Source: Octopus vulgaris (Eukaryota). Taken from it: a stretch of DNA of 64,000 bases. Below the pieces are notes generated by a model. The model made no database searches. It had not been told where the DNA came from and saw nothing but the letters and a program-made list of their open reading frames with translations. Both the position numbers and the translations under genes were made by a program. The DNA is taken from contig OX597828.1 in NCBI GenBank assembly GCA_951406725.2, forward strand, positions 37,138,001 to 37,202,000, given 5' to 3'. Positions 3,252 to 53,605 of the stretch are shown one piece after another; position 1 is the stretch's first letter, and every line of letters begins with the position of its first letter.

Positions 3252-3444
3252 AGGGAGAGTTTACGCAAAAAACAAAAGACGAAGACAGGTGGTGTACAAA
3301 ACAAAGAGATGTATTAGTATAACGCTCAGGAATATAAAGTCTCTTACGTTTCGAGCCTACGCTCTTCTACAGAAAGGGACACAGAAAAAACAAGGAGAGA
3401 AACAAGGAGAGAAAAAATGGAAAGAAAAAAAGGAGAGAAAGTCT
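3252..3444 (-). mobile_element. Hammerhead-bearing mini-element (family H1) flanked by TA runs
   Basis: Minus strand cttt-CTGTAGA-agagcgtaggctc-GAAA-cgTA-agag (3341-3376); 3' tail cctgagcgttatactaatacatc...ctcccta shared with the 37630-37852 copy. Confidence 0.7.
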
Positions 3445-3660
3445 ATATATATATATATATATATACATATATACATAGATACACATATAGCTGAATTATA
3501 AAATGATTAAGGTGGCTAGACGTAATTTAAAACCAAAAAGGAAATATTCAACCGTTCAAATATATATTTATATATGTATACATACATGCATACATACATA
3601 CATACATACATACATACATACATACATACATACATACATACATACATACATACATACATA

Positions 3661-3887
3661 CAGAGCAGGCTAAAGATAACCCGACAGTAAATCAAAATTC
3701 TATAAATACTTAATATTCAATTTTATTTATTCATTCCAATTATTGAAGGCAGTGAGTTAAGATTCAGTGTTTTTCTTTTTCAACATTTGTCTATTTATTA
3801 GCGAACTTTCATGTAAAATAATTTTTTATTTTAATCTTGGAATTAAATGGTTTTAATTTACTGCCAGGAGACTTTTGGACAACCCTA
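3661..3887. mobile_element. Tc1/mariner-type MITE, degenerate
   Basis: Ends cagagcaggctaaagataacccgacagtaaa / tttactgccaggagacttttggacaacccta, TA flanks; same TIR family as 26239-26468. Confidence 0.7.
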
Positions 3888-3998
3888 TATATATGTGTGT
3901 GTGTGTATATATGTGTATATATACACATACATACATACACACACACACATATATATATATATATATATATATATATACATATATACAGAGCAGATAAT

Positions 3999-4547
3999 TG
4001 ACGAGAAGATATTTGCGAAGACATTATTGACTCTATTATTATCTAGTGTAACAATTCAAAAATAATAATAGCAGAATCAATAACATAGGCGATTGCAGGC
4101 CTAAAAAAACACATTAAATAGCTGAAAGATTAAAATAAATCAAAGGACATGCTAAGTATGTCTACCTGCTGGAAATAACAGTCAAAACTCTGATTTAAAT
4201 CGCCAAAATACACTGATAACTACAGAAATCAACCGTCCGAAGGCAAACAGGCCAAGACAATTTCTCAGCATACATTCAACTATTTAGACTCACGTGGCAT
4301 AATAGCCTCACCTCCCTCAGCACGTGTTACCATGATGGAGAGCCCCAACATGTCGCGTTGAATCCTCGCAGCAACTAATACGTTTTGCGCCGAATCCCGG
4401 CAGCCACCAGTGTGAAAATAATTTCAATAAGGAGCAAGTAATTCACGAGAAAATATTTGTGAAGATATCATTGACTCTATAATTATCTAGTGTAACAATT
4501 TAAAAAATGATAATAACAGAATCAATAATATAGGCGATTACAGGCCC
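3999..4547 (+). repeat. About 100-bp diverged direct repeat (3999-4102 and 4444-4547)
   Basis: acgagaagatatttgcgaag...ataggcgattgcaggcc recurs as acgagaaaatatttgtgaag...ataggcgattacaggcc. Confidence 0.85.
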
Positions 4548-4649
4548 ACCCTAAAGCATTAATATATGGAGATGTCTAGTTCATGCTACATATAACACCA
4601 ATGGTTTTTCTAAACTGTTACGTTACACATACAAATATATATACAATTT

Positions 4650-4845
4650 TTAAAAAATGAGAAAAAAGACAAGAAACAAAACAACAACGCGAGTACGTGG
4701 TGCATGCAAAGTATTAATAAGTTGCTTATGGAGGGAAAGAAAGGGTGTGTGGCTTACGTTTCGAGCAAAGCTCTTCTTCAGAAACGAGAAGACTGGAAGA
4801 CGGAGGAAAAAAGTCGCCAAGAATCCACATGTCGTTATATTTTGG
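4650..4845 (-). mobile_element. Hammerhead-bearing mini-element (H1-related)
   Basis: Minus strand CTGAAGA-agagctttgctc-GAAA-cgTA at 4751-4785; adjoins (AATAT)n/(TA)n. Confidence 0.65.
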
Positions 4846-5501
4846 AATATAATATAATATAATATAATATAATATAATATAATATAATATAATATAATAT
4901 AATATAATATAATATTATATATATATATATATATATATATATATATATATATAAAAATGCATTCATACACACGTGCATGTGCATTTTAGGTATTACGCTA
5001 TACAGAATTATTTATATTGAGAACGGTTCTCGTCTTGTGTATCAAAGCTTTTGGTTATTTTAATACTGTTTGTGTGTGTACGTTCGTGACTGAATATAAG
5101 CATATATCTATATGAATATATATATATATATATATATATATATATATATATATATATATATATATATACATTTATACAAACACATGATATACACAGAATA
5201 TTTTTGAAATATATACATAAAAATGCTCGGAATATATACCACACGCACACACATGCACACACACACACAATTACGCCATGGGTTGCTTAAAATAAAGACC
5301 TTAAATGGTTAACACTATGCCGCAACATGTTTAATAAAAACAGTGAGTCCAACATAAGGCGTTTTGTTTCGTTCGAAATAACATATTTTTCACTTTGCTT
5401 AGTCCAGGTCATATGTTATTAGGCAGAACTATGATCAATGACATTCTAGTCTCGATCAACGCGTCCTACCCATGGGCAGTTTTTTTTTATCATCTATCGC
5501 T

Positions 5502-5820
5502 TACTTGTTTCTGTCATTGCTTTGTGGCCATGCTGGGGCACCGGTTTGAAGGGTTTTAGTCGGATTGTTCGACTCCAAGTCTTATGTCTAGTACTTATTC
5601 TATCGTTTTTCTTATGGTGAACAGCTAAATTACGTGGACGTAAAGCAGCTAACACCCGCTATCATGTTGATCAAGGAGACAAACACAGATATACATATAC
5701 ACACACATTTCTATATACAAGGCATTGGCCAAATTAGGGTCTATAGTTGAAGGCACTTGCGCAAGGTACCTCTCATTGGAACTGAACCCGAAACTACATC
5801 GTTGGAAAGCTATGCGCTTA
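5502..5820 (-). mobile_element. Degenerate SINE family A
   Basis: Recognisable tail (ttacttgtttctgtcattg...gccatgctggggcacc) and body similar to 6195-6599. Confidence 0.7.
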
Positions 5821-50697: not shown

Positions 50698-50729
50698 CAC
50701 ACACACACACACATACACACACACACATA

Positions 50730-52500
50730 CTAGCAGAGACACCCGGCTTTGCTCGGGATTAGAATGATATGATTTTTATTCTTTTACTTGTTTCAGTCAT
50801 ACACACTCATATACTCACAGACATATACACACTCATATAAAAATATGCCGTCGTCATCGCTATAGTATAAATGTCATTTAGTGTCTCGTTTGTATCGAAC
50901 GCACAAACACACACACACGCACAGACTCATACACACTCATATAAAATGTCCTGTACTATAGTTGACTATAGTTGACTGTTTATGAAATGTTTTATTGTTT
51001 ACACACTGAAAGACTCACACACATACACTCACAGACACATAGACACTCATATACAAAATGTGACACTCTCATCGAACGCGGAAACACACATACACCCACC
51101 AACCTACACACACCCACACACACTGACAGCCATATAGACATTCGTACACTCACACATACACACACACACACATACACACTCATATAGAAAATGTGACGTT
51201 GTCGTCGTCGTCTTCGTGGTCGTATAAAATGTCCTGAACTATATTTTTCCATAAGAAGATTATCTCAATAAAATGTTATATTGTTTTAATCGCTTATCGA
51301 ATTAGAAGCACATGGACGAACAGTAAATGCCACAATAATTATTATAGATAAATTTCTTAATATATATATATATACATACATAAAAGTACACATCAGGTTT
51401 GCAAAAGAAAAGGTGACCACGTACCTACGTTGTGGCTGATGTGATTATAACACCACGTTGTAAGCAATATTCCCTGCTTTTCTTTCTCGAGCGTTCAAAG
51501 AGGTTTGTTTTGCCTCCCACTCTTGTGTAGCCAACACACAATTGTCCGTGAAAAGACAGGATTCTTCCAAGAAAAGGCCAGCCATGGAGAGTATCTGACC
51601 TTGGTATTTATTAAGTCGGGAATTGCAGTCTTCTGAATGAAAATGAAAATATTGCTCCTGATGGGAGGAATTCTTGGAATGAAAACGTCATCACCTTTTC
51701 CACACTCAGAAAGAATGGTAGCCTCGATAACATGTGACATCATTTTCTTTACCACCAGTCTTGTCCCATTGCAAAGTCTTGGCGGTTCCAGATTTCGATG
51801 CAACATTACAGGAGTTCCAACTTTAAGTCGTAATATGTGGGGAGGTAGTCCGGGAGGCTCCAAGGAATTGAGAAATTCTGGAGGATAGTTCACCACTTCA
51901 TTTTGATCTGGAAATGTATCAAGAGACTTGTAAGTGTGAAGACTGCCAAGAAGAGAATGCATTAGCTGTTCGTTAAGTTTCTTAACAGCGACGTTTTTTG
52001 GAACCAATATTGATCTGTCACACAGCCAATTGTGGTTTTGGTAATTTTCTGCCAAGTTGGGAAACACTTTGTCTTTGAGGTCATCGAGAGAATGAACAAT
52101 AGTAGAAAATGGCCATACTTCCATTTCTCCTAGTGTCGAGAGGCATCATGTCATCGCCAAGTGTCAAAATGTCCTGTGCAAACATTGTGGACATTTGGTC
52201 GCCAAGTAGATGAGCTCTCATGTTAGTGGTAAAAGTCAGGATCGTAACATGACGTCACAGGGGAGAGGACTTCGAACAAGCTTGGACCTTATTTGCTCTA
52301 GTGCCTTTGGGAATGACAGGAAGGGTCTGCCTCAAATCACCCGACAACATTCTCCGATGTCTTTGAGGGATGTATCTAATGCTTCCAGAAGTCCCTTGTG
52401 AGCCATGGTGCACTCATACTAGACGTTCAGATGACACTTTCCAAGGACCTTCCCCTGGTCTGAGCTTTTGCAGATGTTGCATGAAGGCGTCTCTAATGCT
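50730..52500 (-). mobile_element. Helitron 3' portion with PIF1-type helicase pseudogene
   Basis: ECTMAHK, GDLRQTLPVIPKG, TNMR, RSILVPKN, EFLNSLEPPGLPPHILRLKVGTPVML, LCNGTRL, FIPRIP; terminus cccgagcaaagccggg hairpin followed by CTAG|T at 50733-50729. Confidence 0.92.
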
Positions 52501-52567
52501 ACTAAATTGAGAGGTAGCTTAAAAGTCGAGTGTGCTGTCCTGCTACCTGGCATTTTTTCCCATTACA

Positions 52568-52787
52568 GGGGTAGTTCTCGGGAAGATTTAGCATGACACA
52601 GAAAGTGACAACAGAAACAGGAAGAAAAAGCGAGAGAAATTTGTGTTCACTCACCCCCGCCGGAGCCTCGTGGAGCATTAGGTGTTTTCGCTCAATAAAC
52701 ACTAGCAATGTCCGGTCTGCGAGTCGAAATCGCGATGCTACGTCCGCGAGTCCGCTGCCCTAACCACTGGGCCCATTGCGGCTCCAC
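52568..52787 (-). mobile_element. SINE family C, partial
   Basis: Matches 50440-50697. Confidence 0.82.
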
Positions 52788-52801
52788 GTATATACATATA
52801 T

Positions 52802-53210
52802 ACTAGCTGTATAGCTGTTGCTCGGTTTTGTTTTTTAGTTGCGCTTAAAACAGCAGACTTTGATGTCGCCTTAACAAAGTTTTGACATAGTTTCAATCTT
52901 TTTCCAAAAGTTAAAAAAATTGCATTATGTAGCATGAACATTTTTCTGGTTGAAATACACGGAAAAATGGCGACACAGCAGTCAAAATATCGTAAAAATA
53001 TAGGAATTTTCATAGAAAAAAAGCAGCTTTTGTATGTAAATAATTTTTGGTCTTAACATGGTCCGATTCGAATTTTTTCTTCAACGGAATGAAGAGCAAG
53101 TCTTCTATCATACTGTCAACTTGCACCGCAGGGTCTCGGAGGAGATATTGTTAGTTGAAGGCTACGAAACCTGCCACACAAATACAGACAACTTCAGCTG
53201 TATATATATA
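52802..53210 (-). mobile_element. Probable non-autonomous Helitron
   Basis: Minus strand ends ccgagcaacagctatacagCTAG|T (partial hairpin); starts in tatata-cagctgaagttgtctg. Confidence 0.55.
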
Positions 53211-53460
53211 TATATATATATATATATATATACATGCATACATACACATGCGTACACATACATACGCATACAAACAAATCACATCGTACAAGCACACACT
53301 CGCGCGCGCGCGTACATACACAGACACACATATATGCGTGTGTGTGTGTTCGTATGATGTGATTTGTTTGTATGCGTATGTATGTGTATGCATGTGTATG
53401 TATGCGTATTATATGTTACATATGAATGCTAATGCATAAATATATCTTAATGTACACACG

Positions 53461-53605
53461 TTGAAATTTATAGCAAAAACAAAAGACGAAAACAGGTGTA
53501 TGAGCAACAAGCAAGTGAATTAGTTTGACGCTCGAGAAAATGAAAAAGTCTTTTACGTTTCGAGCCTACGCTCTTCAACAGACGAGCGTAGGCTCGAATC
53601 ATTTG
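53461..53605 (-). mobile_element. Hammerhead-bearing mini-element (H1) with terminal fold-back
   Basis: Minus strand CTGTTGA-agagcgtaggctc-GAAA-cgTA-aaagac; 53559-53573 pairs with 53584-53598. Confidence 0.75.

What the first reader, a model, noticed from the sequence alone, without database searches (positions are those of the whole stretch)
3252..53605. Microsatellite-lodged mini-retroelements carrying minimal hammerhead ribozymes (family H1, at least 6 copies)
Seen: copies at 3252, 4650, 17995, 37630, 47338 and 53461 are 150-220 bp, non-coding and abut (TA)n-type tracts. They share CTGNNGA-aGAGC..GCTC-GAAA-CGTA with a palindromic ACGT stem III (ACAT/ATGT in two copies) and a similar 3' tail. 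Stem II stays paired although its loop varies (gtag, ctt, ttt), which suggests selection on RNA structure. Known: Penelope-like elements (PLEs) and metazoan retrozymes carry minimal type I hammerheads that cleave as dimers. Inference: a high-copy non-autonomous PLE/retrozyme system that targets or generates TA microsatellites.
Basis: partly seen in the sequence, partly recalled or inferred. Interest (0 to 1): 0.8.

Follow-up and report, generated by a model that had tools for sequence, protein, structure and literature searches.

The report
Penelope stubs with U6-core hammerhead
The six short repeats are real and are likely the cut-short tail ends of Penelope-like jumping genes that land in TA repeats, a known kind; the unusual point is that the very abundant family behind five of them has U instead of the normally fixed A at position 6 of its hammerhead-shaped RNA motif, which is predicted to weaken self-cutting but is untested.

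Summary
All six motifs are real (6 matches, 0 in 100 shuffles). Five copies form one family with a fixed 3' end and ragged 5' ends; five of the six copies end at (TA)n. Copy 4650 is a rarer sister family. The motif fits the minimal hammerhead of Penelope-like elements (PLEs) except at core position 6: U in 4 of 6 copies, and in 95-98% of laid depth in four public runs from three species labels, while position 7 varies freely. The sister keeps A6. Stem II is invariant, so it shows no covariation, and the ACAT/ATGT stems look like CpG decay. Copies are single, so they are not retrozymes. No discrete non-autonomous unit and no RT or GIY-YIG partner was found. Best reading: 5'-truncated PLE ends inserted into TA tracts from RNA uncut at the ribozyme, probably with weakened cleavage. 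The PLE link and any cutting are inferred. A Hydra-1_Obim-like stub beside copy 4650 points to an octopus. The scan has noted this U6 family before on other DNA; my paper searches found no natural U6 variant in print. New variant of a known kind.

The parts
3253..3443 (-). Main-family (H1a) stub, (TA)n on both sides; 5' part has short internal repeats
3345..3372 (-). Minimal hammerhead-like motif, C3 to position 17; U6 at 3369
4644..4845 (-). Sister-family (H1b) stub; homology to the H1a body at 4677-4786; short TA tract at the 3' end, (TATAA)n-like tract at the 5' end
4755..4781 (-). Minimal hammerhead motif with canonical A6 (4778) and a 3-nt loop
17997..18210 (+). H1a stub, (TTA)n at the 5' end, (TA)n at the 3' end
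18092..18119 (+). Motif with U6 (18095); helix III palindrome broken (ACAT)
37615..37851 (+). Longest H1a stub; (TA)n at the 3' end, abuts the 3' end of another repeat at its 5' end
37730..37757 (+). Motif; this copy has A6 (37733), the minority letter of its family (about 2-5% of depth)
47338..47532 (-). H1a stub, (TA)n on both sides
47430..47457 (-). Motif with U6 (47454); helix III ATGT (wobble pairs only)
53460..53605 (-). H1a stub truncated just 5' of the core; (TA)n at the 5' end, GTGTGTAC at the 3' end
53554..53581 (-). Motif with U6 (53578); predicted to be trapped in a hairpin by the inverted arm
53584..53598 (+). 15-bp inverted copy of helix II attached at the 5' end of the stub (fold-back)

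Best explanation
The six repeats are likely 5'-truncated 3' ends (pseudo-LTR pieces) of two related Penelope-like retroelement families, probably inserted into existing TA microsatellites from RNA left uncut at the ribozyme, and the abundant family carries U in place of core A6, which is predicted to weaken or stop self-cleavage. SHOWN: shared 3' end 119-123 nt after C3, ragged 5' ends, TA junctions, one inverted 5' arm, the minimal-hammerhead layout, family-wide U6 with a free position 7, and A6 in the sister family. INFERRED: a PLE RT/GIY-YIG protein nicks (TA)n and primes reverse transcription about 90-95 nt 3' of the predicted scissile bond. It reads through the intact motif and stops up to about 115 nt further on, sometimes folding back. 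The stubs are dead single copies that cannot form the dimer helix III in cis. In the parent elements the motif is probably still kept as a folded RNA element, either a slow, protein-assisted dimer ribozyme or a non-cutting structure; cutting is likely not needed for insertion.
For: Fixed 3' ends and varied 5' ends. TA at 5 of 6 3' junctions, chance 0.015 each. Inverted 5' arm in copy 53461; PMC8557442 lists 5' truncation, inverted 5' copies and microsatellite bias as PLE traits. The extra base between 9 and 10.1, the G10.1-C11.1 pair and a palindromic 15.2-16.2 are the min-HHR marks of PMC4209133; the first two are present in 6 of 6 copies, C15.2-G16.2 in 4 of 6. In four runs position 6 is U in 95.2, 94.6, 97.4 and 97.8% of depth, position 7 shows all four letters, and position 17 shows only A or U; no other unpaired core position is among the 40 of 44 variant rows shown. 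Helix I is a 4-bp CUUU/AAAG at family level; the sister has G-C in place of C-G at pair 4, one compensatory event. All 6 stubs span the cut site and no tail-only stub was found. Changes at position 6 lower activity (PMC3088659, PMC7151607, PMC9901934), and a Poseidon PLE inserts in vitro without ribozyme cleavage (PMC11167929).
Against: No RT or GIY-YIG frame was found in the window and no genome was available, so the PLE link rests on motif and anatomy only. Covariation among the six copies is not above shuffles (56 of 500). Helix I is imperfect in single copies (83% of cells paired), and helix II is well populated in the folding model in only 1 of 6 copies (P 1.0, 0.52, 0.47, 0.06, 0.05, 0.0). 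Contig laying favours sequences like the reference, which inflates apparent conservation of the core. The A6 sister copy and the A6 copy 37630 also span the cut site, so read-through does not show that U6 is what blocks cutting. No paper I read gives a rate for A6U itself in a minimal dimer.
Confidence: 0.7

Rival explanations
1. Same PLE stubs, but the U6 core is a fully working natural variant in the parent elements, helped by the PLE protein, by dimer formation or by another metal ion.
For: All other core letters and both helices look conserved while position 7 varies four ways. Position 17 takes only A or U. A natural A6C core cleaves well with Mn2+ (PMC7151607). The anole PLE ribozyme cuts only with its protein (PMC11167929).
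Against: Single changes in the CUGA turn gave low activity in a deep scan (PMC9901934). All six stubs span the cut site and no stub starts at it. The conservation signal is open to mapping bias.
Confidence: 0.25
2. A discrete non-autonomous element or retrozyme, copied from a short or circular RNA by PLE enzymes in trans.
For: Non-coding, very abundant (13,266, 14,014 and 6,988 contigs laid from three DNA runs). Laid depth falls steeply 5' of about 37640. Two single contigs suggest rare head-to-tail joints. Retrozymes are reported as PLE derivatives (bioRxiv 10.64898/2026.07.22.740005).
Against: 6 of 6 copies are single, with no tandem unit. The 5' ends are all different. The motif is minimal, not the canonical type I motif of retrozymes (PMC7229834). 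69, 115 and 49 contigs run over an end of the stretch laid, one of them 188 nt beyond its 5' end.
Confidence: 0.13
3. The repeats are 3' tails of a non-PLE LINE or SINE that carries a hammerhead-like relic.
For: A fixed 3' end at a simple repeat with 5' truncation also fits LINE insertion (established knowledge). No PLE protein was linked here.
Against: The motif carries the specific min-HHR marks described from PLE pseudo-LTRs. An inverted 5' arm is present. No tRNA gene was found in the window. PLE stubs with a (TA)n preference (Hydra-like, Naiad-like) lie in the same window.
Confidence: 0.08
4. The elements create the TA tracts (as tails or seeds) rather than targeting them.
For: TA starts at the element's last base in 4 of 5 main-family copies.
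Against: TA flanks both ends of copies 3252 and 47338. Copy 53461 ends at a GT-rich tract. Copy 4650 and a Hydra-like stub share one short TA tract tail-to-tail. The window is full of TA tracts without elements.
Confidence: 0.06

Closest known systems
Minimal hammerheads (min-HHR) in pseudo-LTRs of metazoan Penelope-like elements (Cervera and De la Pena 2014, PMC4209133; parts 1-2 of 4 of the text and part 2 of 3 of supplementary file 2 read)
   Same: Type I order, extra base between 9 and 10.1, G10.1-C11.1, GAAA-C-G-U-H with no loop 3, short helix I, U-rich 5' side, mostly single dispersed copies.
   Different: The main family has U6. All 44 alignment rows I saw in the supplement have A6, though that search demanded the core. 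The core variant described there is U3-A8. Helix II here is only 4 bp.
EN+ PLEs with microsatellite bias: Neptune, Naiad, Hydra (Craig et al. 2021, PMC8557442; passages, and supplement tables S1/S2 in part)
   Same: 5' truncation, inverted 5' copy, (TA)n target, hammerhead about 100 nt from the 3' end.
   Different: Hydra ribozymes have a 3-4 bp stem III and Naiads lack canonical hammerheads; neither fits. The main motif was not found by text search in that supplement. Neptune is the best guess by elimination and is untested.
Poseidon element PAc of Anolis (Frangieh et al. 2024, PMC11167929; parts 1-2 of 4 read)
   Same: AT-rich target, reverse transcription starting downstream of the hammerhead, uncut RNA as template.
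   Different: In PAc the ORF starts inside the ribozyme and the core changes are engineered (C3, G8). Here no ORF is linked and the change is natural, at position 6.
Natural A6C hammerhead of phage Bcep176 (PMC3088659 passages; PMC7151607 parts 1-2 of 4)
   Same: Natural change at core position 6 with the rest of the core kept.
   Different: C not U, a single phage sequence, tested (slow in Mg2+, faster in Mn2+). Here U is near-fixed in a very large animal repeat family and is untested.
Metazoan non-LTR retrozymes (PMC7229834 passages; bioRxiv 10.64898/2026.07.22.740005 part 1 of 5)
   Same: Short, non-coding, type I hammerhead, linked to PLEs.
   Different: Retrozymes are 150-450 bp tandem repeats with canonical hammerheads and circular RNAs; these copies are single, ragged at the 5' end and minimal.

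Membership tests
min-HHR of metazoan PLEs | CUGANGA core with A6 | tested here: not met
   U6 in 4 of 6 copies and 95-98% of H1a depth. Met by copy 37630 and by the sister family, with no variant of 10% or more at 4778.
min-HHR of metazoan PLEs | Unpaired base between A9 and 10.1, and a G10.1-C11.1 pair | tested here: met
   6 of 6 copies
min-HHR of metazoan PLEs | GAAA, palindromic 15.2-16.2, then U16.1 and H17 | tested here: met
   C-G in 4 of 6, U-G in 1, broken in 1; triplet GUA in 5, AUA in 1; position 17 is A or U in the runs
min-HHR of metazoan PLEs | Short helix I (about 3-5 bp) | tested here: met
   4 bp at family level; 83% of cells paired in single copies; about 5 bp in the sister, read from loose-end consensus of agreement 0.7-0.85
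min-HHR of metazoan PLEs | Self-cleavage as a dimer | not testable with these tools
   Needs a bench assay; only assembled contigs were available for the runs
EN+ Penelope-like elements | ORF with PLE reverse transcriptase and GIY-YIG endonuclease joined to this repeat | not testable with these tools
   None seen in the window; no genome held
EN+ Penelope-like elements | Fixed 3' end with frequent 5' truncation | tested here: met
   Five H1a 3' ends 119-123 nt after C3; all 5' ends differ
EN+ Penelope-like elements | Inverted 5'-truncated copy or partial tandem (pLTR) | tested here: inconclusive
   One 15-bp inverted arm in 1 of 6 copies; no partial tandem in the window
EN+ Penelope-like elements | Insertion bias to AT-rich or microsatellite targets | tested here: met
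   5 of 6 3' ends at (TA)4 or more against 0.015 by chance; empty sites not seen
Non-LTR retrozymes | Tandem 150-450 bp units with two or more hammerheads | tested here: not met
   6 of 6 copies single; no such period among the 150 of 162 tandem-repeat rows shown
Non-LTR retrozymes | Expressed circular RNA | not testable with these tools
   No raw RNA reads were offered
Hydra-clade PLEs | Hammerhead with a 3-4 bp stem III | tested here: not met
   Helix III is only the ACGU palindrome, unlike the Hydra rows of File S2
Neptune-clade PLEs | CX2-5CxxC linker between RT and endonuclease | not testable with these tools
   No protein available; the clade is a guess from the min-HHR plus TA bias

The most novel reading that the evidence does not exclude
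One of the most abundant retroelement families of this octopus-like genome spread with a hammerhead whose 'invariant' A6 is U, while the rest of the core stayed under selection. The motif would then be either a working protein-assisted ribozyme with a core that CUGANGA searches miss, or a hammerhead fold turned into a non-cutting RNA handle for the reverse transcriptase. The rarer A6 sister family is a built-in control for whether PLEs need their ribozyme to cut.
Probability: 0.35. Interest if true: 0.6.

Novelty: new variant of a known kind. Interest (0 to 1): 0.36.

Why it matters
The role of PLE hammerheads is open: they are nearly universal in canonical PLEs, yet slow in vitro, absent from Naiads, and not needed for insertion in the one reconstituted system. 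A very large family fixed for U6 beside a related A6 family gives a natural pair to test whether cutting matters, and shows a blind spot of descriptors that demand CUGANGA. The stubs themselves are ordinary retroelement debris.

Tried and rejected
Rfam: no hammerhead family among the 150 of 344 window matches listed, which were microsatellite-driven miRNA and snoRNA models; 0 matches up to E 10 on 37650-37850. Rfam does not detect this motif.

Whole genome: none held, so no genome-wide count, empty-site test or 5' extension.

Collections: the exact motif gave 0 hits in metagenome contigs and 0 in viral contigs. A looser pattern gave 3 loci, all chance matches in bacterial coding DNA with no similarity to the window.

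Expression: no RNA holder listed. Two runs guessed to be RNA hold the repeat as contigs (256 and 205 laid), but contigs show neither transcription nor ends, so this was not used either way.

Folding: monomer and homodimer minimum-energy folds did not give the hammerhead dimer helix III; this is uninformative for a 4-bp intermolecular helix.

Stem II as evidence of selection: rejected, it is invariant.

Coding partner: motif scan of six frames gave one hit, inside a microsatellite. 12 frames scanned against Pfam gave only a Pif1 helicase piece and a mariner transposase piece.

Summed depth as copy number: not valid. The ratios H1a to H1b (24-270 in peak depth, 8-22 in contigs laid) are only a rough guide, because copy 4650 is a diverged reference.

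Literature: Lunse et al. (RNA Biol 14:1499) was not held, the O. vulgaris repeat library is on Zenodo and was not seen, and supplementary file 1 of PMC4209133 was not searched. Any of these may already hold this family or a U6 variant.
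Full report
OBSERVATION. The window is AT-rich and full of microsatellites. The shared pattern has 6 matches and none in 100 shuffles. A covariance model of the six finds no further copy apart from the inverted arm of copy 53461. Rfam does not see the motif.

TWO FAMILIES. Copies 3252, 17995, 37630, 47338 and 53461 (H1a) are 69-88% identical over about 125 nt. Copy 4650 (H1b) matches their profile over positions 4-109 with 28 bits, against 113-120 for the members, which built the profile. 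It is a distant sister. Laying public contigs on each gave different sets: 13,266, 14,014 and 6,988 contigs for H1a and 591, 1,097 and 845 for H1b in the same three DNA runs, which carry three different species labels. These counts are not copy numbers. Five H1a copies in 64 kb would mean of the order of 10^5 copies in a genome of about 2.8 Gb (size derived from PMC13282606; inference from one window).

ANATOMY. The five H1a copies end 119-123 nt after C3, about 90-95 nt beyond the predicted cut. Their 5' ends all differ, from just upstream of the core to 115 nt upstream. Five of six 3' ends lie within 2 nt of (TA)4 or more; the chance per site is 0.015. Copies 3252 and 47338 have TA on both sides, which fits insertion into an existing tract. 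Copy 53461 carries a 15-bp inverted copy of helix II at its 5' end. PMC8557442 (passages read) describes 5' truncation, inverted 5' copies and microsatellite bias as PLE traits. No copy is in tandem. No RT or GIY-YIG frame was seen, and no genome was held.

HOST. A 70-bp stretch at about 4568-4637 (+) matches by eye the 3' part of the Hydra-1_Obim hammerhead row in the supplement of PMC8557442, and about 23150-23200 (-) resembles the 3' end of Naiad_Obim. The window is therefore very likely from an octopus. PMC13282606 (part 1 of 3 and passages) reports many Penelope families in O. vulgaris and does not use the word ribozyme.

THE MOTIF. PMC4209133 defines the minimal PLE hammerhead by an extra base between 9 and 10.1, a G10.1-C11.1 pair, a palindromic 15.2-16.2 and a short helix I. 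The first two hold in 6 of 6 copies and C15.2-G16.2 in 4 of 6. Stem II is the same in all six, so it gives no covariation; 56 of 500 shuffles reach the score. ACAT and ATGT are the two transitions of a CpG and are minor alleles in the runs (3-16%), so I read them as decay. At family level helix I is four pairs, with C at 2.4 in 81-96% of depth in the three DNA runs and 52% in the run guessed to be RNA. The sister has G-C where H1a has C-G at that pair. This is a single event, partly read from loose-end consensus.

THE DEPARTURE. Core position 6 is U in 4 of 6 window copies. With the A6 copy 37630 as reference, U made up 95.2, 94.6, 97.4 and 97.8% of depth in the four runs, so reference bias works against this result. 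Position 7, free in hammerheads, shows all four letters. Position 17 shows A or U only. C3, U4, G5, G8, A9, G12, A13, A14, A15.1 and U16.1 are not among the 40 of 44 variant rows shown. The sister shows no variant of 10% or more at its A6. This pattern suggests several U6 parent lineages that kept the rest of the core, but laying favours sequences like the reference, and I could not test it on real copies.

WHAT U6 SHOULD DO. A natural A6C core is slow in Mg2+ and faster in Mn2+ (PMC3088659 passages; PMC7151607 parts 1-2 of 4). In a deep scan, changes in the CUGA turn other than the 3-8 swap gave low activity (PMC9901934 passages). I saw no rate for A6U in a minimal dimer. In the reconstituted anole PLE, ribozyme cleavage needed the protein and was not needed for insertion (PMC11167929 parts 1-2 of 4). 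All six stubs here span the cut site and no tail-only stub was found, so their templates were uncut there. That also holds for the two A6 copies, so it does not single out U6.

MECHANISM. Most likely a PLE protein nicks (TA)n, primes about 90-95 nt downstream of the motif, copies through it and stops early, leaving single dead stubs. The parent elements of H1a probably keep the hammerhead fold with reduced or no cutting. The anatomy and the letter frequencies are shown; the enzyme, the clade, the targeting and all activity are inferred. Neptune is my guess for the clade, because Hydra ribozymes have a longer stem III and Naiads lack canonical ones.

NOVELTY. PLE ends with minimal hammerheads at TA repeats are known. 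All 44 min-HHR rows I saw in the supplement of PMC4209133 and all 34 rows of File S2 of PMC8557442 have A6, though both came from descriptors that require it. Searches for A6U or U6 variants and for cephalopod ribozyme elements returned no natural U6 hammerhead; I saw listings and read only the papers named above. Lunse et al. and the octopus repeat library were not seen and may hold it. Earlier notes of this scan report the same U6 family on other DNA, some in both terminal repeats of young PLEs. I had measured U6 before reading them; the coding link they report I could not check.

VERDICT. Observation partly confirmed; interpretation partly supported. Ordinary PLE-type stubs with one real and testable oddity, the family-wide U6 core. 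New variant of a known kind; interest 0.36.

Noticed in passing
window 4568-4637 (+): 5'-truncated 3' end resembling Hydra-1_Obim (by-eye match to the File S2 row), lacking the first part of its hammerhead core. It lies tail-to-tail with copy 4650 across one short TA tract.
   Followed up: partly
window about 23150-23200 (-): Stretch resembling the 3' end of Naiad_Obim as printed in the supplement of PMC8557442.
   Followed up: partly
window 854-2111, 34679-35110, 60194-61470: Three copies of a mariner-like element, about 90% identical; Transposase_1 domain at 1109-1540 (-).
   Followed up: partly
window 51498-52145 (-): 216-aa frame with a Pif1 helicase 2B domain, probably a Helitron remnant.
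   Followed up: partly
window 5971-6184, 6904-7146, 26916-27255, 38153-38357, 41284-41703, 44987-45426, 63276-63678: Abundant dispersed repeat family with internal partial duplications, SINE-like.
   Followed up: no
window 6191-6607, 8612-9005, 10392-10735, 22681-23079, 25224-25441, 45744-46132: Second abundant dispersed repeat family of about 400 bp, SINE-like; a similar 3' end abuts the 5' end of copy 37630.
   Followed up: no
window 16333-16358 (-): Isolated canonical CUGAUGA...GAAA motif with a weak stem II, unrelated to H1.
   Followed up: no
window 3988-4101 and 4432-4546: Direct repeat of 115 bp at 88% identity, 444 bp apart, between copies 3252 and 4650.
   Followed up: no
window 688-819 and 22297-22671: A near-perfect 130-bp palindrome between TA tracts (98%), and a 95-bp inverted repeat pair at 85%.
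   Followed up: no
window 37757, family level: The cleavage-site base differs between species labels: U makes up 3%, 18% and 54% of depth in the three DNA runs, suggesting different subfamily expansions.
   Followed up: partly
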